Notes: generated from the letters alone by a model not told the origin. Positions 3 through 8,495 are shown, counted from the first letter of the stretch. The stretch is 10,958 bases of DNA from Candidatus Hodarchaeum mangrovi (GCA_016839515.1 JAEOUE010000229.1:1-10958), one strand, 5' to 3'. Made by a program: numbers and translations.

Positions 3-455
3 TTAGATAATAATAATGGACAGGAAAATACTGATGTTCATCCTGTTTCTTCACCTGCGACTGTTACTTTTACCCTCTCAAATCCGAGTGACGAAGTTGC
101 ATTAATCTATCTCGAAGCCCGACAAATAGGATCAGGGAATCTCTGGCCAGTCGAAATTCAACGTGATTACCCTCAAGTCCAGTCTCCTGGGGAGAATAAG
201 ACCATTAAAATCACTATAAATGCCCCCGAGGATGTCAAAGAAGGTGAGCGACGCATTTATGTGATCCATGCTTATATCAATGGGATTCTAATTGGTGGGG
301 TTGAAATTGACTTTGTGAAAAGTCAATATACCTCAACTAGTACCTCATCTCTTTCTTCCAGTACCTCGCTCCCAACCGCCAATATAACCACATTCTCAAT
401 TCCCTTTATCTTGCTTCCCACCTTATCCATCTATTTATGGAAAAAGAGGAAATAA
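3..455 (+). CDS. 5'-truncated membrane-anchored surface protein: Ig-like beta-sandwich + Ser/Thr linker + C-terminal TM helix + basic tail
   Basis: The frame of the 261..455 ORF is open back to the window edge (LDNNNGQENTDVHPVSSPATVTFTLSNPSDE...SPGENKTIKITINAPEDVKEGERRIYVIHAYING...). VTFTLSN...PGENKTIKITINAPED fits an Ig-like/CARDB-type strand pattern. It is followed by TSTSTSSLSSSTS, hydrophobic FSIPFILLPTLSIYLW and KKRK-stop. Confidence 0.75.
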   Translation, partial: LDNNNGQENTDVHPVSSPATVTFTLSNPSDEVALIYLEARQIGSGNLWPVEIQRDYPQVQSPGENKTIKITINAPEDVKEGERRIYVIHAYINGILIGGVEIDFVKSQYTSTSTSSLSSSTSLPTANITTFSIPFILLPTLSIYLWKKRK

Positions 456-737: not shown

Positions 738-2429
738 GTGTTGTTTTTCGCTGAAATAAAATCAATCGCCTCATTTATACCAGTTAACAGGTTAGAAATC
801 GAGGAGCTCGTTGATCACTATCACGCAATGTCGCAATTGAACTATAAAATTGCGCTAGGTATGATGAAACGTGCAGTGAATCGTTTTCGCGGGAAAGCAT
901 TAAGTTCTGTCAGGTGGATCTATAATCAACGTTTAATGTTAAATGAAAAAATTGTCCCTGGTCCAAATGAAGATGCTTTAACGGCTGGAATTCAATCTTT
1001 TAACTATGCTATTAAGAGAGCCGGCATTCAACCTCATCAAATTGATGCTTTGTTCGTTGTATCTGAATCATACCCCTACGCTGTTAAATCAAGCACTGCA
1101 CTAGCTGGAAAAACAGGTGTGACAAATCTAAGATTTGGAGTAAGGGGTGAGTTTGCGTGTAAACCCTTTGGTGAATTCCTAGAAATCGGGGCTGCATTAA
1201 TAGATTCTAAAAGATGTCGTTATGTAGCAATTACAGCTACTGATGCTTCTCAAGGTGCACCAGGAGACGATCTTGAGTTTTCAGCATCATTTTATTCAAC
1301 TACAATGATCCTCGGGGAAGATGGTGATGGGAGTATCGCAAAACTGCAGGGTAGGACTTCTATAAATTATGATTTTAGTGATTTCATTCGAAAAGAAGGT
1401 GAACCATTCCCCGAACATGAAGGGCAAGGAACAAGTCTTGCATTCCGTGGAATGATTCTTTCTGCGGTAAAGAAACACCTTGAACGTTATGAAATAGCTC
1501 CCGAGTGCCTTCCGAACAAAACTTGGGTTATCCACAGCCCCAATGGTTCTTTTCCTAATGAAGCCTTACTAGATGTTTCTGATTATTTTGGTATTAAGTT
1601 GGCTGAAAAGAAATTTGATGGGGACGGAAAAATGCTTGGGATTGAACCCCAGGTCAAGGTTTCAAACTTAGCTCCTCAAATTGCTAACGGTTATTCTGCA
1701 ACTGTTCCAACTGCTTTGTGTGCAGCAATGGAGAATAGTGCTAAAGGGGATGAGATTATGACCGTCCTTTATGGCTCAGGTGCAGGGTCTGACGTGATTA
1801 GTATCAAAATGAAAGTTAATGGTTTAATTGTAGCTAATAGTGAAGTACCAACAGTCCAAGAACAAATTGACTATAAACAAAAGATCTCAGTTGAGGATTA
1901 CATCAATTACCGGGACACTGCTGAAAAAATTGCCAAACATAGGGCGCTTTTGGAGGTAGAACCTCTATCAGAAGAGTATTATCAGGTTGAAGGATGTCCT
2001 GTGTGTGGAGCGGTTTACTTCGGGGATAGCTGGAATCCAGAGAATTTTCCAGATTTTTCACCACCTGAGAAATTCTTTGAATTACGAGGTAAATGTTTAC
2101 GGGGAATTCAAAAAGATAAAAGTGATACCAAGCGAATATGTAGTGCAGAATTACAAAAGATAAAAGTATTTAAGCGCGCTAAAATTACGAATGTCACTTT
2201 ATATGGCGGAAAAAAGCAGGTTGGTCATCCTGAGAACCCCTATTGGACAATGTTTGAACAGAAGATGATTCGAGCATTCAACTATAATCCTAAAATCTAT
2301 AATTTCATGGTTGGTCAAGAAGTGAAAGCAGTAATTGGTCGCTGGCGCCCCTCCCCGAAAGATTGGGTTCCTATCCTCTATGTTCCTATGTATGCACCTC
2401 TTCGACGGGACTATGCTAAAAAACAATAA
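738..2429 (+). CDS. Archaeal-type hydroxymethylglutaryl-CoA synthase (thiolase fold) fused to a C-terminal DUF35-like Zn-ribbon/OB-fold domain
   Basis: Archaeal HMGCS motifs: EKIVPGPNED, SESYPYAVK (Glu110), GEFACK (Cys141), SQGAPGDDLEFSA, DFIRKEGEPFP, HSPNGSFP (His266), ANGYSA, YGSGAGSD. After about aa 410: GCPVCGAVYF...PP...C...C and VGQEVKAVIGRW...ILYVPMYAP, resembling DUF35 proteins. Confidence 0.85.
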   Translation: MLFFAEIKSIASFIPVNRLEIEELVDHYHAMSQLNYKIALGMMKRAVNRFRGKALSSVRWIYNQRLMLNEKIVPGPNEDALTAGIQSFNYAIKRAGIQPHQIDALFVVSESYPYAVKSSTALAGKTGVTNLRFGVRGEFACKPFGEFLEIGAALIDSKRCRYVAITATDASQGAPGDDLEFSASFYSTTMILGEDGDGSIAKLQGRTSINYDFSDFIRKEGEPFPEHEGQGTSLAFRGMILSAVKKHLERYEIAPECLPNKTWVIHSPNGSFPNEALLDVSDYFGIKLAEKKFDGDGKMLGIEPQVKVSNLAPQIANGYSATVPTALCAAMENSAKGDEIMTVLYGSGAGSDVISIKMKVNGLIVANSEVPTVQEQIDYKQKISVEDYINYRDTAEKIAKHRALLEVEPLSEEYYQVEGCPVCGAVYFGDSWNPENFPDFSPPEKFFELRGKCLRGIQKDKSDTKRICSAELQKIKVFKRAKITNVTLYGGKKQVGHPENPYWTMFEQKMIRAFNYNPKIYNFMVGQEVKAVIGRWRPSPKDWVPILYVPMYAPLRRDYAKKQ

Positions 2430-2477: not shown

Positions 2478-5249
2478 CTAAAAACCATCTATCTTTTTCC
2501 GCTTCTCGAAGAGTTTATCCGTAAGAAAGTTACCTACACTTTCCAATTTCTTATCAATTTCTACTGCTTTTGTTTTCACATGCTCTTTCTCAGGTTTTGG
2601 AACACTAAAGATTGATAGTGTTCCTACGATTTGGTGTTCCTGATTTATGACAGGAAGTATAGATTCTCCCGTAATAGAAAATATTCCCCAAGCTTCTTTC
2701 AGCTTTTGATCAAGACTAAAGGTATAACTGATGGGAAAGGCCACCTCAAAGACTTGAATATTCTCTAGTTTACTTCTTTCTTCAACCATGTTGAATGGAA
2801 TAAAACCAGTTGGAATTCCATCTTGTGTAATAATCCATGTTTCTTTATCATTAGGATTTACTTGGATATTTGAGCAGAATTGATCCCATTCAAGTAGCTT
2901 GAAATTTTTTTGGACATATTCATCAATTGATTCCTCAGCATTGGTAATTCCAACATATTCTTCGCTAATCTTTTCCAGATTGATATCAAATGTAACTGGT
3001 AATTTTATTAGTTCAATTTGAGCTTTATTTATCAAAATTGCTGAAAATGATTTACCAATTGTGCCATTCGCATAAAATCCCAATTTATTTTCGTCATAGA
3101 TCCGATGATTATGCCCCACAATGATTATTTGATTCATTAGGGTATTATCTGTCTTAAATTTAGTAATATATTGATCGAGAGGAGGATTATAGCTACGCCA
3201 AAAATCTTGGTCGCCATGTGCAATCCAAATGTTTTCGTCTTGATAATAATCACCAATAAAATATATCCCTAATTCTCGTTCTAGTTTTAAACGAAACTTA
3301 TCCCAAAATTCTTCTGGGTCATGATTCCCTGAAATTATGTGAATTCTTTGATCCCCAAGAGAATTCTGGATTTGAGACAATTCATCAAGGATGGAAATCC
3401 CCTTTTTGTCAGCTTCAGAGAGTTCATTAACACAATCAATATTGAAAACATCTCCCGCAATTAAAATTGATTTAACTCGATGTGTCTCACATGTCTTCTT
3501 GATTTCTTCCAAACATAATTTAGCTAATTTATTATTAAGTCCCCAGTGAAGATCCGAAAAGACCAGAAGGGGGTATGCAATTTTATATTCAGTCCCAATT
3601 GGTTCTTGAGGTTCTAATTTTTGTAAAATATCATTGTAAACATCTTTTATAATGGTTTTGAGTTCCTCATTAATAAATTCCACCATATTAATAGGCATTT
3701 CTCTTGTTAGCTTATATTTCGTATCTGCAAAACAATTATATCCTTGAATAAGCTTATTTCCTTGTTTTTCCGAGATTAAATTTTGTTCGATGGCAATTTT
3801 AAGGCGGTCACTAGTTGAAGTAGTAAAAGTAGTCTCACTGAGGATCGCTAAAATAGTACTAATATCCTGTAAAGCTGTAAGAACAGAATATGTCTTAAAT
3901 ATTGAATCATAGAGGAAAGGTTGACAAATGCGTAAATTTTCCCCTAAAGCATTACTTTCATCCTTGAGGGATTCTGTGATACGAAGAAGAATCGGAATTA
4001 TATCAGGAAGTGCTTTTTTGGTAATTTTTGTAATTTCCTCTCGTAGAACTTGCCCTTTTCCAATAGGTTTCTCATATATCGGAACCATATTTATTATTGA
4101 TTTGTAGATAGACCAGCAATATTTTCTAATACCATCTTTACGGTCTTCGTCAGAGATAGGGGTGTTTCGAAGGGATTGGATAGAAGAAAGCATTTTTTCC
4201 AGTTCTTTTTTCTGATTTTGTTCTAAGAAACCTTCATCTCCGTAAAGAAAAGCCTTTAGGATGTTTGTTATTGACTCTTCATGGAAATTAAGATTCACCA
4301 GATTTTCTAATTTACATAATTCGAGATTAGGAACATGCTGCAGAACTTGGTCAAGAGCCTCACCTACCTGCAAAAATTGCTTTTCACTCCCCTCATGAAT
4401 CAATAGCATATCTAAGTCTGATGTGTCTGAATATTCTCCTCTCCCATACCCGCCACAGATTCCAATGATGAAATTACTAGGGATGCCTACCATCCTTTTC
4501 TCTTCCTTATTAACCTGAAGGATTTTGTTAAAAACCTCAATTTTCTCTACCAATAGTACAGAACTCTCAAGAAGAAGATTAATGCGCGAAAGAACAGTGG
4601 ATGGGGTTCTTTCATTCCATATTGATCCTAAATATGCTCTAATTTGATTCATATCCCAAGTGAGTTTGCTTGCCTTTGATAATTCCCGATATGACAAAAA
4701 ATGTTCTATACGTGGTGGAATGGCATGGGGTGTGGTTTGGTAGGTAAATTCAGTAATTTTTTTTATAGAATTCATAAACTCAGGGAGAATAGAGGATTTC
4801 TTATTCATAGGTCCTTTGACGATTAGGAGTTCTTCAAACTCTGATATTTCAGGGGTCGATTTCAAGATAAGGATACTGTCTTCTAATTTGATATCTTTAC
4901 ACTTTTCAAATAGATCCCAATAACCTGATTTAATCATCTTATTTTCTACTAAATTATTGAAAAGGTCGATTGAGGATTTAATGATTTGATGTTTGGTAAA
5001 ACGATCCTTATTCCAGATCCGTTCTTTGGATATTGACTCGAGGTCTACCCAATCGTCATTTAAAAAGAAGATTCCTTTTTTAAATAGGAGGTCTTCTGGA
5101 AGATAGAAGACATTTCCTGCGTGTGTCAATAATAGGCTGATGGCTGGAGTCTGTACATGTTTAAGATCTTCAAATGACGTAATCTTCTGTAAATAGCTTT
5201 GTTCGCTTAAATAAAATCGTAAGGTTTTAATTGCACCGTTGAAATCCAT
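2478..5249 (-). CDS. Multidomain protein (~923 aa): unknown N-terminal region + GlnD/GlnE/DUF294-type nucleotidyltransferase + helical substrate-binding domain + calcineurin-like metallophosphoesterase + CBS pair
   Basis: NTase motif IGICGGYGRGEYSDTSDLDMLLIH (~4400-4465). GlnE/DUF294_C-like TSTSDRLKIAIEQNLISEKQGNKLIQGY (~3735-3820). All five MPE motifs: SDLHWG, AGDVFN, SGNHD, AHGD, VGHNH (~3100-3570). CBS-like C-terminus LDQKLKEAWGIF...ILPVINQEHQIVGTLS. Start reassigned from 5294 to ATG 5249, which is 2 nt after the upstream stop and preceded by the SD-like GGTGGAGGG. Confidence 0.8.
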   Translation of the reverse strand: MDFNGAIKTLRFYLSEQSYLQKITSFEDLKHVQTPAISLLLTHAGNVFYLPEDLLFKKGIFFLNDDWVDLESISKERIWNKDRFTKHQIIKSSIDLFNNLVENKMIKSGYWDLFEKCKDIKLEDSILILKSTPEISEFEELLIVKGPMNKKSSILPEFMNSIKKITEFTYQTTPHAIPPRIEHFLSYRELSKASKLTWDMNQIRAYLGSIWNERTPSTVLSRINLLLESSVLLVEKIEVFNKILQVNKEEKRMVGIPSNFIIGICGGYGRGEYSDTSDLDMLLIHEGSEKQFLQVGEALDQVLQHVPNLELCKLENLVNLNFHEESITNILKAFLYGDEGFLEQNQKKELEKMLSSIQSLRNTPISDEDRKDGIRKYCWSIYKSIINMVPIYEKPIGKGQVLREEITKITKKALPDIIPILLRITESLKDESNALGENLRICQPFLYDSIFKTYSVLTALQDISTILAILSETTFTTSTSDRLKIAIEQNLISEKQGNKLIQGYNCFADTKYKLTREMPINMVEFINEELKTIIKDVYNDILQKLEPQEPIGTEYKIAYPLLVFSDLHWGLNNKLAKLCLEEIKKTCETHRVKSILIAGDVFNIDCVNELSEADKKGISILDELSQIQNSLGDQRIHIISGNHDPEEFWDKFRLKLERELGIYFIGDYYQDENIWIAHGDQDFWRSYNPPLDQYITKFKTDNTLMNQIIIVGHNHRIYDENKLGFYANGTIGKSFSAILINKAQIELIKLPVTFDINLEKISEEYVGITNAEESIDEYVQKNFKLLEWDQFCSNIQVNPNDKETWIITQDGIPTGFIPFNMVEERSKLENIQVFEVAFPISYTFSLDQKLKEAWGIFSITGESILPVINQEHQIVGTLSIFSVPKPEKEHVKTKAVEIDKKLESVGNFLTDKLFEKRKKIDGF

Positions 5250-5251
5250 AA

Positions 5252-7222
5252 TTAGCCCTCCACCATCTGTTTTAAGCCTAATAAAATTATCCAATCTGAC
5301 CTATCTGTTAAAATTGATTCTTCCTTTGGCTTATAATTAAGATCTCTCAGTGTTTCAAAAGCCTCCATTCGTATGAAAGTAGATTCTTCTTGATCTTTGA
5401 ATATATTAAAGAGTAAATCAAGACTTTTTTCGTCAATACTGTGTTTTCCAAGGGCTTCTAGTGCAGCCTGTCTCATACGTTCATCATTCGATTTATCAAT
5501 AGCAAAATTAAGCAAAAATTTGGTGACTTCAGGATCGAGATATGTTTGCATATTCCGTAACGCAATAATTTTGATTTTTATGGCAATATCATCATTTATT
5601 GCCATCTGAAGCAATAAATCTTTTTCTGTTCCTTGTCTTGCGATAAAATCTATAACCGATCGCTTAATTGGATCAGGAAGCCTAATGAAATCATTGAAAG
5701 TATTGTATAATTGAGGTAATTTACTTGTAAACCATGCTAGTGAGTCAATTGCTCTTCCTCTTAAAAATTGGTTGTCCTGTTCATTTTCAGCAACCGATTT
5801 AAGGAAAGGTACTAGTTTACTTCCCACCCTGCTAATGAGAATGCGAAGTGCCAGTTCACGGAGTTGGAAATCTTGATTTGAGTCCTCAAAAATCTTGAAG
5901 AATTTTTTTACAATCGGATCCATAGAGATTATAGGATTAATAGCTGAAATACCAGAATCAGGAAATTGATTGATAATTTTCTTTCGTAAAAGCTGAATGG
6001 GTTCTTTAAGTTTGTATTCGGGGATTCCTCTTCCATATGCTTGTATAGATATTTTTCCTCTGTCTAAAGATTGTGCTTCAAAGGAAATATTTGGATATTT
6101 TTGACGAAATTCTTCTAATAATCCTGTGTCTAATTGTAATTCGTCAATTTCTTCTGCTTCAAAGCCAATTCTAGCTGAAAAGTGATATTGTAAGTAGTTA
6201 AGACATACCCACTTAATAGAGGCATGTTCATAGGGATGGTCAAGGATATCGGAGATTAATCGGTTGATCTTCTCTTCCTTGAGATTGAGGGGCAAATTTT
6301 GGATGATTTTAGATCTTTCTTCTTTGGATAATTTCCGATTGAACAATTTTTTCCATTCTTCATGCCTTTGATAGCTGGCAATATTCCCATATACTGGTTC
6401 TTCGTTTACAGTCGAAAATTTAATCCCTGGATGGTTTTTTATGAGGTCTATAAGTTTAACCACATCGTAAAAATCAATAGAAGCATCAAATCCTTTTTCT
6501 CTAATCTCTTGTTTAGTTAACATCTCCTCAGAATCATCAACAATCTTCAAAAATGTAAAAATACTATCAATAACTAGATTCTCTGAAAATTTTTGTTTGA
6601 TATTGTAATATCTGAATGTACATCGTTTATATCCCTCTGCAATTGTCTCTTCTCGCTCAAATCTCACCCAGTTAGTAATATTATCAGCCATAATAGAATC
6701 ATATTCACACATAATAAAACCTAGATCTTCACGTTTGAACTGTTTGAAGACTTCATGATAGAAACATCGATTGATATCAAATGCAAATTCCTTTTCAGTA
6801 ACGTTAATTTCCTTTACTTGAAAATATTCATTATCATAGATTCTTTGATTACCTTTTCGAGCATCTTCCACAAAAATAGTCCATGGATCCTTAGAAGAAG
6901 CCATGTACCGTCGTTGGGGTTCTAAAACTAATTCTTCAAGCATAATTTTATAGATAGCTAATACGAGCCTTAGAATAATGGTGGTATCCTTTTTTCCTTC
7001 CTCTCCAGGGAGTGATTCCTCAAGAGCTATAACAAAAATAGGATTAATACCATGAAAAAGCTGAGTTTCGTTAAAAGATTCTTTAAGAGTTTCATAAAGC
7101 TCTCGAAAACGAGTTGCAAACGAGGATAAGATCGTATCAGCTTCCTCTAGGTCAAAGGCCTTTTTAAGCTCATTTGAAGTTAATAATACAAAATAATCAA
7201 ACATTTGGTCCAGACTTGACAT
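5252..7222 (-). CDS. L-2-amino-thiazoline-4-carboxylic acid hydrolase-like (V4R-related) domain + wHTH-like domain + HEAT/PBS-lyase repeat protein
   Basis: FAFDINRCFYHEVFKQFKREDLGFIMCEYD...RFEREETIAEGYKRCTFRY matches the ATC-hydrolase family pattern with three conserved Cys. The C-terminal ~30-aa repeats (DSNQDFQLRELALRIL, ENEQDNQFLRGRAIDSL, DKSNDERMRQAALEALG, DQEESTFIRMEAFETL) are HEAT-like. Start taken at ATG 7222; GTG 7231 is possible. Confidence 0.75.
   Translation of the reverse strand: MSSLDQMFDYFVLLTSNELKKAFDLEEADTILSSFATRFRELYETLKESFNETQLFHGINPIFVIALEESLPGEEGKKDTTIILRLVLAIYKIMLEELVLEPQRRYMASSKDPWTIFVEDARKGNQRIYDNEYFQVKEINVTEKEFAFDINRCFYHEVFKQFKREDLGFIMCEYDSIMADNITNWVRFEREETIAEGYKRCTFRYYNIKQKFSENLVIDSIFTFLKIVDDSEEMLTKQEIREKGFDASIDFYDVVKLIDLIKNHPGIKFSTVNEEPVYGNIASYQRHEEWKKLFNRKLSKEERSKIIQNLPLNLKEEKINRLISDILDHPYEHASIKWVCLNYLQYHFSARIGFEAEEIDELQLDTGLLEEFRQKYPNISFEAQSLDRGKISIQAYGRGIPEYKLKEPIQLLRKKIINQFPDSGISAINPIISMDPIVKKFFKIFEDSNQDFQLRELALRILISRVGSKLVPFLKSVAENEQDNQFLRGRAIDSLAWFTSKLPQLYNTFNDFIRLPDPIKRSVIDFIARQGTEKDLLLQMAINDDIAIKIKIIALRNMQTYLDPEVTKFLLNFAIDKSNDERMRQAALEALGKHSIDEKSLDLLFNIFKDQEESTFIRMEAFETLRDLNYKPKEESILTDRSDWIILLGLKQMVEG
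5255..5264 (-). promoter_or_regulatory. Shine-Dalgarno site (GGTGGAGGG) within the end of the upstream gene, consistent with translational coupling
   Basis: The minus strand reads ...ATGGTGGAGGGCTAATTATGGAT...: SD, upstream TAA stop, 2 nt, ATG. Confidence 0.7.
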
Positions 7223-7267
7223 ACAATCCACACATTAATACTTGAAGATTCATCACAAAAAGATAAA

Positions 7268-7300
7268 AGTATACATAAATATATACATTTATATATGGAT
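7268..7300. promoter_or_regulatory. Divergent promoter with back-to-back TATA-like boxes
   Basis: tttatata at 7288-7295 lies about 25 nt before ATG 7320, a leaderless geometry. tacataaa at 7272-7279 reads tttatgta on the minus strand. The intergenic region is 97 bp between divergent starts. Confidence 0.55.
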
Positions 7301-7319
7301 AAAATATGATAATGTACTA

Positions 7320-7676
7320 ATGACAATAAATAAGAATAGAGCACCTCGTTCAATGCTTGATCGTGCCCAAGCAATATTCAAAATCATCAATGATATAGAT
7401 AGTCCATTTGCCAAAACGAAATTGACAAAAGCTAAAATAAGTCCAAAGGCCGCAGAAAATTGGTTAGACCTGATAGTATTTATTCAAAATCAACCTAAGA
7501 TTAGGGTTACAAAAACAGAAAGAAATACTTTTGTTGAGAAAGTAGGAGGCAAGTTCTCCCAAATGAGTTTGAATTTCTTTTTAGATGAGAACCAACCAAT
7601 TGAAAAAAGACTTCAAAGTTTGGAAGCTTATGCACAATCGATTTTTGTACAACAGCGGTTAGCAAAACGAGATTAA
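7320..7676 (+). CDS. Small (118 aa) basic protein, putative winged-helix DNA-binding regulator
   Basis: The first 26 codons of the 7242 ORF are AT-rich promoter sequence, so the likely start is ATG 7320 (MTINKNRAPRSMLDRAQAIFKII...). The helix-helix-helix-beta-hairpin pattern (AQAIFKII / KTKLTKA / PKAAENWLDLIVFIQ / KIRVTK..NTFVEK) is compatible with a wHTH. Confidence 0.65.
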   Translation: MTINKNRAPRSMLDRAQAIFKIINDIDSPFAKTKLTKAKISPKAAENWLDLIVFIQNQPKIRVTKTERNTFVEKVGGKFSQMSLNFFLDENQPIEKRLQSLEAYAQSIFVQQRLAKRD

Positions 7677-7853: not shown

Positions 7854-8495
7854 ATGAATATAAGACAAAAAGTGCTTCTTGTATTTTCTTGGTTCTGCAT
7901 TCTCCTCTCCATTAGCATTTTAGTCTCTTTAATCGCCGCGAATTCGCAAAATATAGCAGTAATTTCCTTCATACGTACAATGCATGGTAATACTACAGGT
8001 AACTTCGGTGAAAATGGACGTGCAAGTTTTTCTTTCTATGGTGGGGGACTTTCGGCTTGGAATGACACCGCAATGGTCCCAGTAAAGTATGAGTATAGTT
8101 TCTATGATTCTACTGTCAATCGTAGTGCTTATTATTGGCTAGCATTTGTTGTTGAGTTTATTAACCCAGAAGGAGAAGTTATCTTCAATGCTACTCGAAA
8201 AATCTTTACTTATCAGAATACAGGTTATGAATTTTTTGATCAATTTGAAACAGATTTAAACTGGTATCTTCCAACTGAAATGAGTGAAATCTCTAATGGT
8301 GAGGTATGGCATGGCATTGCGTATATGATTGGTAAAGTGACCTATGATCAACTTATATATAGTAATAGCAGCAATTTTTGGGATATTACATATACCACTT
8401 CTAACTTTTCTCACTCTAGTGTTTTAACCGTTCTTCCCATAATTCTAGCATTGAATACACTAATTATGTTTTCACGCAAAAAAACATCCAAATAA
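7854..8495 (+). CDS. Hypothetical cell-surface glycoprotein (N-terminal signal/TM, beta-rich ectodomain, C-terminal TM + basic tail)
   Basis: N-terminal RQK followed by a hydrophobic stretch. Six N-x-S/T sequons (NTT, NDT, NRS, NAT, NSS, NFS). C-terminal VLTVLPIILALNTLIMFSRKKTSK. SD-like AGGAG at 7839-7843. Confidence 0.7.
   Translation: MNIRQKVLLVFSWFCILLSISILVSLIAANSQNIAVISFIRTMHGNTTGNFGENGRASFSFYGGGLSAWNDTAMVPVKYEYSFYDSTVNRSAYYWLAFVVEFINPEGEVIFNATRKIFTYQNTGYEFFDQFETDLNWYLPTEMSEISNGEVWHGIAYMIGKVTYDQLIYSNSSNFWDITYTTSNFSHSSVLTVLPIILALNTLIMFSRKKTSK

What the first reader, a model, noticed from the sequence alone, without database searches (positions are those of the whole stretch)
2478..7676. 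Three-gene cluster forming a possible undescribed archaeal signalling system
Seen: the ATC-hydrolase/V4R-wHTH-HEAT gene and the NTase-MPE-CBS gene are 2 nt apart with an internal SD, and share a 97-bp divergent promoter region with a small wHTH-like gene. No PII (glnB/K), glnA or amtB, the usual targets or neighbours of GlnD/GlnE-type enzymes, is in the window. Inference: a ligand-sensing HEAT scaffold controls, or is modified by, the bifunctional enzyme, and the small wHTH protein gives transcriptional output or autoregulation. A stress or defence role is an alternative.
Basis: inference. Interest (0 to 1): 0.8.

Follow-up and report, generated by a model that had tools for sequence, protein, structure and literature searches.

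The report
Hodarchaeales sensor-scaffold and nucleotidyltransferase-phosphoesterase operon
A three-gene block found almost only in one group of Asgard archaea probably encodes an enzyme that attaches and removes a nucleotide tag on a still unknown target, together with a ligand-sensing scaffold protein and a small local DNA-binding regulator.

Summary
g1 (5252-7222, -) and g2 (2478-5249, -) lie 2 nt apart, with GGAGG 7 nt before the g2 ATG. g3 (7320-7676, +) diverges from g1 across 97 bp. The ATC_hydrolase, HEAT, metallophosphoesterase (MPE) and Pol-beta NTase labels hold. The CBS label in g2 and the wHTH label inside g1 were not confirmed.

The order g3<->g1->g2 is the same in 12 of 12 genomes of the genus that carry g1, and the flanking genes differ. 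The g1 and g2 families are tiny: 46 hits each among 5.8 billion proteins, and 7 among 1.84 billion representatives, all named Heimdall/Hodarchaeales-type. One other genus has a split form: HEAT-only protein, NTase, then MPE.

A low-confidence g2 model aligns best with GlnE and DrrA, which are protein AMPylators. P-II was not found in 6 cluster-bearing genomes. g3 folds as a winged helix and sits behind a conserved TATA box and TACA-N4-TGTA palindrome. Its family also pairs with unrelated long EutA genes elsewhere, so it looks like a local regulator and not the system's specific output.

Best reading (0.4): a reversible protein-nucleotidylylation switch on a ligand-sensing HEAT scaffold. No interaction or modification was tested.

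The parts
7320..7676 (+). g3: 118-aa basic protein (pI 10.1), predicted winged helix plus two C-terminal helices
   Evidence: ORF and start. AF2 model with pLDDT 88.9 and topology H-H-H-beta-beta-H-H. Fold hits are nearly all wHTH regulators but weak: Foldseek E>=0.088 and VIA Z<=6.2. pI. No Pfam, NCBIfam or PDB sequence hit.
7223..7319 (.). 97-bp divergent promoter region between the g1 and g3 start codons
   Evidence: Sequence. Compared across 7 orthologous regions.
7283..7295 (+). ATACATTTATATA: conserved block containing the TTTATATA TATA-like box (7288-7295) about 25-32 nt before the g3 ATG. This spacing suggests a leaderless or near-leaderless g3 mRNA.
   Evidence: ATACATTTATAT is present in 7 of 7 g1-g2-type intergenic regions. 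Coordinates. The TATA and leaderless reading is inference from the archaeal promoter consensus (recalled).
7307..7318 (+). TGATAATGTACT: degenerate copy of the TACA-N4-TGTA palindrome that lies just upstream of g3 in the relatives; candidate g3 operator
   Evidence: The palindrome matches 8/8 in 7 of 12 g3 upstream regions and >=7/8 in 9 of 12. Random 76-nt windows of the same loci give 15/4800 and 151/4800. In the window, the scan's 7/8 best match is the ATACATTTATAT block at -36, not this element. The motif was defined after seeing the data.
5252..7222 (-). g1: 656-aa ATC_hydrolase(V4R-like)-linker-HEAT protein
6584..7222 (-). g1 residues 1-213: ATC_hydrolase-type small-molecule domain with Cys triad C153/C172/C201
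   Evidence: Pfam 3.7e-16. The Cys are invariant in 25 of 25 family members and aligned in 5 of 5 ATC_hydrolase proteins compared. The Atlas model of orthologue P0083, residues 1-213, matches an ATC_hydrolase cluster with TM 0.74 by row.
6380..6583 (-). g1 residues 214-281: short unassigned linker domain
   Evidence: No Pfam hit at E<=1 for residues 204-282. Only weak Spx-like hits (E 0.033; E 0.35).
5255..6379 (-). g1 residues 282-656: HEAT/ARM-type solenoid
   Evidence: HEAT_2 at residues 537-625. Orthologue model residues 282-654 match HEAT proteins with TM 0.72 by row. Residues 442-627 align with the HEAT-only protein of the split locus, E 3e-9.
5257..5261 (-). GGAGG Shine-Dalgarno-like box inside the end of g1, 7 nt before the g2 ATG
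   Evidence: A GGAG(G)/GGAA box 7-10 nt upstream is present in 8 of 8 fused loci and at both junctions of the split locus.
2478..5249 (-). g2: 923-aa multidomain enzyme (N-terminal domain, GlnE-like NTase plus helical domain, metallophosphoesterase, C-terminal domain)
4710..5249 (-). g2 residues 1-180: alpha/beta N-terminal domain with no assigned family
   Evidence: Model pLDDT about 80 over residues 20-175. No Pfam hit at E<=1.
3627..4697 (-). g2 residues 185-541: Pol-beta NTase core (GGYGRGE...SDLDMLLIHEG, residues 263-287 = 4389-4463) plus helical substrate-binding-type domain
   Evidence: Invariant G266, G267, D278 and D280. NTP_transf_2 in 23/23, DUF294_C in 16/23 and DUF294 in 3/23 members. 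GlnD models hit residues 264-306, E 3.1e-5. VIA: GlnE N-domain Z 10.2, DrrA Z 9.6, GlnE C-domain Z 9.5, with 275-291 residues aligned. The model is of low confidence.
3105..3572 (-). g2 residues 560-715: calcineurin-like metallophosphoesterase with all metal-binding motifs
   Evidence: Pfam Metallophos 4.9e-8, above cut-off. D566xH568, G599D600, G641N642H643D644, H678 and G712H713xH715 are invariant in 23 sequences and kept in the 33%-identical and split forms.
2481..2972 (-). g2 residues 760-923: conserved C-terminal domain (LKEAW..FS.TGE..LPV......VG.LSIFSVPK) plus terminal helix. It resembles CBS only by eye.
   Evidence: Conservation. CBS not confirmed. Model pLDDT is below 50 here.

Best explanation
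g1 and g2 form an operon for a reversible nucleotidylylation switch, and g3 is its local transcription factor.

g2 carries two catalytic modules on one chain. One is a GlnE/GlnD/DrrA-type nucleotidyltransferase with its helical substrate-binding-type domain, the proposed 'writer' that puts AMP or UMP on a protein hydroxyl. The other is an intact metallophosphoesterase, the proposed 'eraser', taking the place of GlnD's HD domain. A conserved C-terminal domain may set the balance between the two.

g1 is made together with g2 by translational coupling. It supplies a V4R/ATC_hydrolase-type ligand-binding domain with a Cys triad, fused to a HEAT solenoid. The solenoid would dock g2 and/or present the substrate, so that a small molecule decides which activity prevails.

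g3 is a basic winged-helix protein. It would bind the TACA-N4-TGTA palindrome between the back-to-back TATA boxes and so regulate itself and the operon.

Shown here: gene order, coupling signals, conservation, domain content, catalytic motifs, and that P-II was not found in 6 cluster-bearing genomes. Inferred: protein (rather than nucleic-acid or small-molecule) substrate, the eraser role of the MPE, g1-g2 contact, the ligand, and DNA binding by g3.
For: Gene order and coupling:
- The order g3<->g1->g2 is identical in 12 of 12 genomes that hold full-length g1 (coordinates). The flanks are unrelated in 6 fetched loci.
- A 2-nt gap plus a GGAG(G) box is present in 8 of 8 fused loci.
- The split variant in another genus keeps HEAT-only (288 aa), NTase (533 aa) and MPE-C-terminal (376 aa) genes with overlapping ends.

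Catalytic signatures:
- The NTase signature and all MPE metal motifs are invariant in 23 sequences. They are kept at 33% identity and in the split form.

Sequence leads:
- GlnD UTase models hit residues 264-306, E 3.1e-5.
- DUF294_C hits 16/23 members and DUF294 3/23.

Fold:
- The three longest top matches of the g2 model are GlnE N-domain (Z 10.2, 275 aligned, rmsd 4.2), DrrA (Z 9.6, 282 aligned) and GlnE C-domain (Z 9.5, 291 aligned).
- From my own knowledge, the characterised members of this class modify protein tyrosines. The passages seen in PMC3710099 place the GlnD/GlnE and DUF294_C helical domains in one clan and list DrrA.

g1:
- ATC_hydrolase is above its cut-off and the Cys triad is conserved.
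- A passage of PMC5847659 links the ATC hydrolase, V4R and HNOB sensor domains and their three Cys.

g3:
- Confident wHTH-type model and pI 10.1.
- Conserved TATA block and enriched palindrome.
Against: - No curated GlnD, GlnE or DUF294 model reaches its cut-off (22.4 bits against 519 for TIGR01693). PF08335 and PF03445 find nothing in the genome at E<=0.01.
- A profile of g2 residues 1-549 finds no relative outside the family in 1.84 billion proteins.
- The g2 model is poor: mean pLDDT 56.7, and below 50 across the NTase core 241-288 and most of the MPE and C-terminus. Z of about 10 is under the tool's own caution line for helical folds.
- The helical part also matches HEPN partners of MNT toxin-antitoxin pairs at Z 8-9.8.
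- The best MPE sequence matches are SbcD-type nucleases, not protein phosphatases.
- No substrate is known, and no Tyr is invariant in the HEAT part of g1.
- Distribution is patchy: 13 of 22 genomes of the genus have g2, and it is missing from genomes 94-99% complete. This suits an accessory function.
- The g3 family also accompanies unrelated genes.
- No interaction, modification, ligand or expression data exist.
Confidence: 0.4

Rival explanations
1. An accessory conflict or defence module. The NTase with its HEPN-like helical domain and the Mre11/SbcD-like phosphoesterase would act on invading or host nucleic acids, or on a toxin partner as in MNT-HEPN pairs. g1 would be the sensor and g3 the repressor.
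For: - Patchy presence: 13 of 22 genomes of the genus, with a decayed remnant carrying 2 stops in G003.
- The flanks differ in every locus.
- The helical domain matches HEPN toxins and MNT partners at Z 8-9.8.
- The best MPE sequence hits are SbcD, E 2.8e-7.
- Faint sub-threshold hits to defence models: HEAT-ARM_XIII 3.4e-5 and PDC-S09 0.0023; EruA 0.0011 and DS9 phosphoesterase 0.02.
- A SAVED protein lies about 4 kb away in 1 of 6 loci.
Against: - No PADLOC or NCBIfam defence model comes near a full match.
- The flanks are mostly transporters and metabolic genes, not defence islands.
- No H follows the invariant R482 within 4-6 residues, so no HEPN RNase motif is visible there. The GlnD/GlnE-type helical domains are listed as lacking it (passage of PMC3710099).
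- The Asgard defensome paper has no mention of metallophosphoesterase, nucleotidyltransferase or HEAT in its main text (supplements not seen).
Confidence: 0.15
2. A synthase and phosphodiesterase for a nucleotide second messenger. The NTase would make a signalling nucleotide, the MPE would degrade it as class III cNMP phosphodiesterases do, and the g1 ligand domain would be the receptor or regulator.
For: Both catalytic sites sit on one chain and are conserved. From my own knowledge, MPE-fold enzymes include cyclic-nucleotide and glycerophosphodiester phosphodiesterases; GpdQ appears at Z 6.5. A ligand-binding domain is encoded in the coupled gene.
Against: The top long fold matches are GlnE and DrrA; no cGAS, OAS or CD-NTase appears among the 50 rows shown. 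The one SAVED protein near a locus is in 1 of 6 loci. No known receptor or effector domain is encoded in the module.
Confidence: 0.12
3. A nucleic-acid end-processing or repair enzyme. The NTase would add nucleotides to RNA or DNA 3' ends, and the MPE would trim ends or open 2',3'-cyclic phosphates.
For: Generic Pol-beta NTase hits: NTP_transf_2 in 23/23, DNA_pol_B_palm in 9/23 and Polbeta in 8/23 members. The MPE resembles SbcD, Mre11 and the MPE nuclease.
Against: No RNA- or DNA-binding domain was detected in g1 or g2. The helical domain is of the GlnE/DUF294_C type and not that of CCA-adding or poly(A) enzymes. Pairing with a ligand sensor and HEAT scaffold is unusual for repair.
Confidence: 0.1
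4. Small-molecule nucleotidylylation, as by aminoglycoside or lincosamide nucleotidyltransferases. The compound sensed by the V4R-like domain would be adenylylated, and the operon would be induced through g3.
For: NTase plus helical domains of the same clan occur in kanamycin nucleotidyltransferases (table passage of PMC3710099). V4R domains of PoxR and MopR sense phenols (passage of PMC5847659).
Against: No aminoglycoside-NTase chain is among the 50 rows shown. A 107-kDa enzyme with a second hydrolase and a HEAT partner is far more elaborate than known resistance enzymes. No transporter or catabolic gene is conserved beside the module.
Confidence: 0.08

Closest known systems
GlnD, the bifunctional [protein-PII] uridylyltransferase / uridylyl-removing enzyme
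   Same: One chain carries a Pol-beta NTase with a helical domain, a metal-dependent hydrolase, and a C-terminal regulatory region. GlnD models give the best NCBIfam hits to the NTase motif.
   Different: The hydrolase is a metallophosphoesterase, not an HD domain. The C-terminus is not ACT (and was not confirmed as CBS). There is an extra 180-aa N-terminal domain. P-II was not found in the own genome or in 5 other cluster-bearing genomes. The score is far below the family cut-off (22.4 against 519 bits). A HEAT/ATC_hydrolase partner gene is present.
GlnE (glutamine synthetase adenylyltransferase) and Legionella DrrA/SidM (Rab1 AMPylator)
   Same: These are the best structural matches over 275-291 residues of the NTase and helical region: Z 10.2, 9.5 and 9.6.
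   Different: Identity is 10-13%. The removal activity would be hydrolytic, by an MPE, and not a second NTase domain (GlnE) or a separate enzyme. The three glutamine-synthetase-like genes of the genome lie on other contigs. No GEF or P4M domains are present.
DUF294/DUF294_C nucleotidyltransferases fused to cNMP-binding and CBS domains (architecture recalled; function untested as far as I know)
   Same: These are the closest Pfam families to the NTase and helical region: DUF294_C in 16/23 members and DUF294 in 3/23. They too are signalling-type multidomain proteins.
   Different: All hits are below cut-off. Neither family is found in this genome at E<=0.01. There is no cNMP domain, and the MPE fusion and HEAT partner are absent from that family as I recall it.
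MntA-HepT (MNT-HEPN) toxin-antitoxin pairs, in which the NTase AMPylates the HEPN toxin
   Same: NTase next to a HEPN-fold helical domain. An AMPylated HEPN toxin (8xdj, Z 9.3) and MNT-HEPN complexes are among the fold matches.
   Different: Here the two are fused, as in GlnE. No Rx4-6H motif follows the invariant R482. The protein is about 5 times larger, with an MPE and a partner scaffold.
V4R / ATC_hydrolase / HNOB sensor domains (for example the phenol-sensing domains of PoxR and MopR)
   Same: g1 residues 1-213 pass the ATC_hydrolase cut-off and carry the three-Cys cluster described for these domains.
   Different: The domain is fused to a HEAT solenoid, not to an AAA+ activator or a kinase. 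Whether it is catalytic or only binds a ligand is unknown.
Divergently transcribed archaeal wHTH autoregulators (MarR, TrmB and Rrf2-like)
   Same: g3 has the wHTH topology, is basic, and sits behind a TATA box followed by a palindrome near its start.
   Different: It has no sequence-family match. Two extra C-terminal helices are present. The family (76 proteins) was recovered only from Heimdall-type MAGs, wherever a name was given.

Membership tests
GlnE/GlnD/DrrA-class protein nucleotidyltransferases | Pol-beta NTase signature hG[GS]-x9-13-DxD | tested here: met
   G266, G267, D278 and D280 are invariant in 23 of 23 sequences. NTP_transf_2 hits 23/23 members at E<=1, best 4e-6. The window protein scores E 0.0083, below cut-off.
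GlnE/GlnD/DrrA-class protein nucleotidyltransferases | Reaches a curated family model (TIGR01693, PF08335, PF03445 or PF10335) | tested here: not met
   TIGR01693 scores 22.4 bits against a cut-off of 519.4. DUF294_C scores 14.4 bits against 22.5 for the window protein. PF08335 and PF03445 give no match in the genome at E<=0.01.
GlnE/GlnD/DrrA-class protein nucleotidyltransferases | NTase plus helical domain superposes on solved members | tested here: inconclusive
   1v4a Z 10.2 (275 aligned, rmsd 4.2), 6yx5 Z 9.6 (282 aligned) and 3k7d Z 9.5 (291 aligned) are the top long matches. The model has mean pLDDT 56.7, with the NTase core below 50.
GlnE/GlnD/DrrA-class protein nucleotidyltransferases | Transfers AMP or UMP to a protein side chain | not testable with these tools
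   Needs biochemistry.
GlnD specifically | P-II substrate encoded in the genome | tested here: not met
   PF00543 gives 0 matches in the own genome (91% complete) and in 5 other cluster-bearing genomes, including a one-contig genome. The control found it in 13 of 14 genomes.
Calcineurin-like metallophosphoesterases (PF00149) | Passes the Pfam cut-off and keeps DxH, GD, GNH[DE], H and GHxH | tested here: met
   34.1 bits against 21.5. All five motifs are invariant and kept in divergent forms.
CBS pair (PF00571) | Sequence or profile match to CBS | tested here: inconclusive
   The window protein has no hit, and 4 of 23 relatives hit at best E 0.011. A genome scan finds 19 CBS matches, none in g2. 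hhalign gives probability 1.25%. The model is unreliable in this region.
ATC_hydrolase (PF14196), V4R-like | Passes the Pfam cut-off; three conserved Cys | tested here: met
   60.7 bits against 28.1. C153, C172 and C201 are invariant in 25/25 members and aligned in 5/5 ATC_hydrolase proteins. The Cys cluster is described in PMC5847659 (passage).
HEAT repeat proteins | Passes HEAT_2; solenoid fold | tested here: met
   43.8 bits against 27.7. Orthologue model residues 282-654 match HEAT clusters with TM 0.72 by row.
Winged-helix DNA-binding proteins (g3) | H1-H2-H3 followed by a beta-hairpin wing | tested here: met
   AF2 model, pLDDT 88.9: H12-25, H32-38, H42-56, E61-65, E70-74.
Winged-helix DNA-binding proteins (g3) | Significant match to a known wHTH family or structure | tested here: inconclusive
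   No family reaches E 0.001 in Pfam or NCBIfam, and the PDB profile search gave no hit. Foldseek best E is 0.088. VIA best Z is 6.2 (ScpB, 55 aligned, rmsd 3.0), with most rows being wHTH domains.
Known anti-phage defence systems (PADLOC-DB 2.0) | Match of the proteins to a system's models | tested here: not met
   Only partial, weak hits: HEAT-ARM_XIII 3.4e-5 over 67 residues and PDC-S09 0.0023. g3 has none.

The most novel reading that the evidence does not exclude
Hodarchaeales, reported as the closest archaeal relatives of eukaryotes (abstract in the listing), may have invented a self-contained writer-eraser enzyme for protein AMPylation or UMPylation. A GlnE/DrrA-like NTase and a metallophosphoesterase sit on one chain, docked on a HEAT scaffold that carries a V4R-type ligand sensor. 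The target would be a host regulatory protein other than P-II. One candidate class is the roughly 50 Ras-superfamily GTPases of this genome, by analogy with DrrA acting on Rab1.
Probability: 0.12. Interest if true: 0.85.

Novelty: new variant of a known kind. Interest (0 to 1): 0.6.

Why it matters
Reversible nucleotidylylation by GlnD, GlnE and DrrA-type enzymes is, as far as I recall, known only from bacteria. Here an enzyme of that class appears in a new architecture, with an MPE in place of the HD or second NTase domain, an unassigned N-terminal domain, and a HEAT/V4R-like partner. P-II, the classical target, was not found in the genomes searched, so a new substrate must exist.

The family is very narrow: 46 proteins among 5.8 billion and 7 among 1.84 billion representatives. 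It belongs to Hodarchaeales and their kin, a lineage studied for the origin of eukaryotic regulation. The prediction can be tested with three recombinant proteins.

My searches found no paper describing the module. That does not show that none exists.

Tried and rejected
Complex prediction:
- The job paired g2 residues 1-770 with g1 residues 430-656.
- The queue was full every time and the job never ran, so there is no result on g1-g2 binding.

Structure and sequence look-ups that gave nothing useful:
- Whole-protein model of g2: poor, pLDDT 56.7. Foldseek found only weak MPE rows with E>=1.1e-3.
- PDB sequence searches with g1, g2, g3 and their profiles: nothing useful.
- Atlas for g3: no usable hit.
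I used a stored orthologue instead.

CBS test: hhalign against own-genome CBS pairs gave probability 1.25%.

A shared domain between g3's two kinds of partner:
- Long EutA against g1: probability 0.7%.
- Long EutA against g2 residues 1-549: probability 0.35%.
- Rejected.

Context of the divergent fused form P0094: the search for related loci returned no locus in genome contigs or metagenome contigs.

Expression: no RNA holder was listed.

PADLOC: no system.

Rejected idea that GS is the target through linkage: the three Gln-synt_C genes are on other contigs.

Rejected idea that g3 is the specific output of the system: its family pairs with long EutA elsewhere.

Full report
1. WHAT IS IN THE SEQUENCE

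On the minus strand, g1 runs 5252..7222 (656 aa from the ATG at 7222) and g2 runs 2478..5249 (923 aa from the ATG at 5249). The g1 stop TAA and the g2 ATG are 2 nt apart, and GGAGG (5257-5261) lies 7 nt before the ATG. On the plus strand, g3 runs 7320..7676 (118 aa). Ninety-seven bp (7223-7319) separate the g1 and g3 start codons.

The other genes of the window are an HMG-CoA-synthase-like ORF, an EamA transporter, a GH3 glycosidase and two unassigned membrane-anchored ORFs. There is no P-II, glnA or amtB.

2. DOMAINS

g1
- It passes the Pfam cut-offs for ATC_hydrolase (residues 126-205, 3.7e-16) and HEAT_2 (residues 537-625).
- An Atlas model of a 59%-identical orthologue splits into three parts. 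Residues 1-213 match an ATC_hydrolase cluster (TM 0.74 by row). Residues 282-654 match HEAT proteins (TM 0.72 by row). About 70 residues between them stay unassigned.
- Three cysteines (C153, C172, C201) are invariant in 25 of 25 family members. They align with cysteines in all 5 of 5 ATC_hydrolase proteins I compared.
- A passage of PMC5847659 states that the HNOB, V4R and ATC hydrolase domains are similar. It also states that a cluster of three conserved Cys is shared by V4R phenol sensors and ATC hydrolase. This is the basis for calling the domain V4R-like.

g2
- It passes Metallophos (residues 560-715).
- The NTase is weak in this single sequence (E 0.0083). Over 23 family members, NTP_transf_2 hits 23/23 (best 4e-6), DUF294_C 16/23, DUF294 3/23, Metallophos_2 21/23 and CBS only 4/23 (best 0.011).
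- GlnD models hit the NTase motif, best E 3.1e-5, far below their cut-offs.
- In the alignment the NTase G266-G267...D278-x-D280 and the five metallophosphoesterase metal motifs are invariant. They are kept in a 33%-identical fused form and in a split form.
- The CBS label was not confirmed. A PF00571 scan of the genome finds 19 matches, none in g2. hhalign of the g2 C-terminus against three CBS pairs of the same genome gives probability 1.25%.

3. FOLD OF g2

The AlphaFold model made from 23 sequences is poor: mean pLDDT 56.7, with the NTase core 241-288 and most of 667-899 below 50. Foldseek gave only weak phosphoesterase rows.

The search that does not rely on Foldseek ranked these matches on top:
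- GlnE N-terminal domain: Z 10.2, 275 aligned, residues 185-539.
- DrrA: Z 9.6, 282 aligned.
- GlnE C-terminal domain: Z 9.5, 291 aligned.
- HEPN-type helical domains: Z 8-9.8 for residues about 404-547.
- Phosphoesterases: Z 6-8.

These values are below the tool's caution line for helical folds, and the model is weak, so I treat the result as a consistent lead and not as proof. It agrees with the DUF294_C and GlnD sequence leads. It also agrees with passages of PMC3710099, which place the GlnD/GlnE and DUF294_C helical domains in one clan, fused to GlnD/E-like NTases.

4. HOW WIDE THE FAMILIES ARE

- g2 has 46 relatives at E<=0.001 among 8000 scored candidates from 5.8 billion proteins. All named ones come from Hodarchaeales or Heimdall-type MAGs, with lowest identity 53%. 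g1 also has 46.
- A profile of g2 residues 1-549, read against 1.84 billion representatives, found 7 proteins, all family members or fragments.
- In whole genomes, g2 is in 13 of 22 genomes of the genus (own included) and in 0 of 19 relatives outside it.
- A profile search of 400 genomes of the phylum found it in 14. These are the same 13 plus one genome of another family.
- It is missing from genomes of the genus that are 94-99% complete. One genome holds only a 169-aa remnant with two stops. The module is therefore accessory and can be lost.

5. LINKAGE

- In 12 of 12 genomes with full-length g1, the order g3<->g1->g2 is the same on one contig. Where the contig ends, only the start of g2 is seen (coordinates).
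- In six loci with enough flank, none of the window's other genes recurs. The neighbours are unrelated transporters, acetyltransferases, oxidoreductases and the like. One SAVED protein and one transposase lie a few kb away in single loci.
- The 2-nt gap and a GGAG(G)/GGAA box 7-10 nt before the g2 ATG are present in 8 of 8 fused loci.
- In the one genome outside the genus, the enzyme is split. A 288-aa HEAT-only protein is followed by a 533-aa NTase protein and a 376-aa MPE-C-terminal protein, with overlapping ends. There is no ATC_hydrolase domain and no g3 nearby.
- That HEAT-only protein aligns with g1 residues 442-627, E 3e-9.
- The conserved core is thus HEAT plus NTase plus MPE. The ligand domain and g3 are additions in this genus.

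6. g3

It has no family in Pfam, NCBIfam or PADLOC and no PDB sequence match. Its family has 76 members.

A model from 38 sequences is confident (pLDDT 88.9) and shows H-H-H, a beta hairpin, then two helices. Foldseek and VIA rows are almost all winged-helix DNA-binding domains (ScpB, IscR/Rrf2, MarR, NiaR, IclR, Z-alpha). They are weak, with E>=0.088 and Z<=6.2. The protein is basic, pI 10.1, against 5.2-5.3 for g1 and g2.

The family is wider than g1-g2:
- Strong matches occur in five genomes of other genera that have no g2 match and no full-length g1 match.
- In 5 of 6 such loci fetched, and in one genome of the genus by coordinates, g3 lies next to a 652-711-aa EutA-family gene (PF06277, E 1e-131 to 1e-141). 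It is divergent in five cases and tandem in one.
- The sixth locus sits at a contig start beside a TetR-like ORF.
- Three further genomes hold a long EutA but give no g3 match at E<=1e-5.
- Long EutA shares nothing detectable with g1 or with g2 residues 1-549.

In a tree of 51 g3 sequences, all 26 copies labelled g1-g2-linked lie in one half and 4 of 5 EutA-linked copies lie in the other. Seven of the 26 are linked by locus and 19 by matching contig length, which is a proxy. One long-branch EutA-linked copy sits inside the first half, and the basal split is weak (68/84). A single recruitment is therefore likely but not shown.

7. PROMOTER REGION

- All 7 of 7 g1-g2-type intergenic regions contain ATACATTTATAT, with TTTATATA 25-32 nt before the g3 ATG in the window. 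Most have a reverse-oriented TATAAAAA-like box just beside it, facing g1.
- A palindrome TACA-N4-TGTA lies upstream of g3. It matches 8/8 in 7 of 12 regions (4 of 7 g1-g2-type, 3 of 5 EutA-type) and >=7/8 in 9 of 12. Random 76-nt windows of the same loci give 15/4800 and 151/4800.
- Caveats: I defined the motif after seeing these sequences, the regions are related, and the window's own copy is degenerate.
- The position between and just after the TATA boxes is where archaeal repressors usually act (my own knowledge). This fits autoregulation and control of the divergent operon.

8. POSSIBLE TARGETS

- P-II was not found in the own genome (91% complete) or in five other cluster-bearing genomes, one of them a single contig. 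The control genomes gave 13 of 14.
- PF08335 and PF03445 find nothing in the genome.
- Three glutamine-synthetase-like genes exist on other contigs, and there are 52 Ras-family matches.
- No invariant tyrosine lies in the HEAT part of g1. This mildly favours g1 as a scaffold or regulator over g1 as a Tyr-modified substrate.

9. READING

The best-supported mechanism is a reversible nucleotidylylation switch. A GlnE/GlnD/DrrA-type writer and a metallophosphoesterase eraser sit on one chain. They are tuned by a conserved C-terminal domain and by a co-translated partner that joins a V4R-like ligand domain to a HEAT scaffold. A divergently transcribed winged-helix autoregulator sits beside them.

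The architecture parallels GlnD (NTase, hydrolase, small regulatory domains), but every accessory part is different and the known target was not found. I put this at 0.4.

The rivals are:
- an accessory conflict or defence module (0.15);
- a second-messenger synthase and phosphodiesterase (0.12);
- nucleic-acid end processing (0.10);
- small-molecule nucleotidylylation (0.08).

PADLOC gave no system.

10. LIMITS

- No binding, modification, ligand, DNA-binding or expression evidence exists.
- The complex prediction never ran.
- No RNA run holding the locus was listed.
- The genomic context of the divergent fused form P0094 could not be fetched.
- Papers were seen only as search listings and as passages. 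Their supplements were not read. The defensome tables of PMC13700489 could bear on the defence rival.

11. VERDICT

This is a real, conserved, lineage-restricted module. It is a new variant of a known kind of enzyme system, with an unknown target.

Noticed in passing
L023 5465-7934; L024 7556-10092; L025 3303-5840; L026 4008-6459; L027 7718-10949: In other Heimdall-class genera, the g3-family winged-helix gene is paired with a long EutA-family gene (652-711 aa). The pairing is divergent, or tandem in L027. The EutA protein has a roughly 210-aa N-terminal extension holding a conserved CxxC. The same TACA-N4-TGTA palindrome lies before g3 in 3 of 5 of these loci. This looks like a second conserved regulator-target pair.
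   Followed up: partly
window 738-2429 (+): An HMG-CoA-synthase-like ORF of 563 aa. Residues 63-394 match archaeal HMGCS models below their cut-offs. A 170-aa C-terminal extension contains a CPVC motif and has no Pfam hit at E<=1.
   Followed up: partly
window 3-455 (+) and 7854-8495 (+): Two ORFs without any family. Each ends in a hydrophobic stretch followed by a basic tail (KKRK and RKKTSK), and the first has a Ser/Thr-rich stretch just before it. They look like C-terminally anchored surface proteins.
   Followed up: no
L013 10908-11108; L017 6272-6394: A second, partial g3-like stretch lies just downstream of g2 in two loci, one copy with a stop inside. It is probably a decayed duplicate.
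   Followed up: no
G003:C127:2970-3467: A 169-aa remnant of the g2 C-terminus with two TAA stops, in a genome where no g1 was found. This suggests loss of the module in that species.
   Followed up: no
L028 7126-7776; L029 6754-7740: Stand-alone ATC_hydrolase proteins, 39-41% identical to g1 residues 1-225, occur in another genus with no NTase, MPE or HEAT gene beside them. The sensor domain appears to move as a module.
   Followed up: partly
protein P0092 (429 aa, partial): An alpha/beta-hydrolase domain (residues 1-272) runs in one frame into the start of a g1 homologue (from residue 296, 59% identical). This is either a merged gene call or a real fusion at a contig end.
   Followed up: partly
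L016 113-1312 and 10702-11217: In one orthologous locus, a SAVED-domain protein lies about 4 kb from g2, and a Ras-family GTPase gene lies directly beside g3. Neither was seen in the other five loci.
   Followed up: no
L024 6018-6744 and 12612-12998: A minimal nucleotidyltransferase and HEPN gene pair, plus a second HEPN gene, flank the g3/long-EutA pair in one genome.
   Followed up: no
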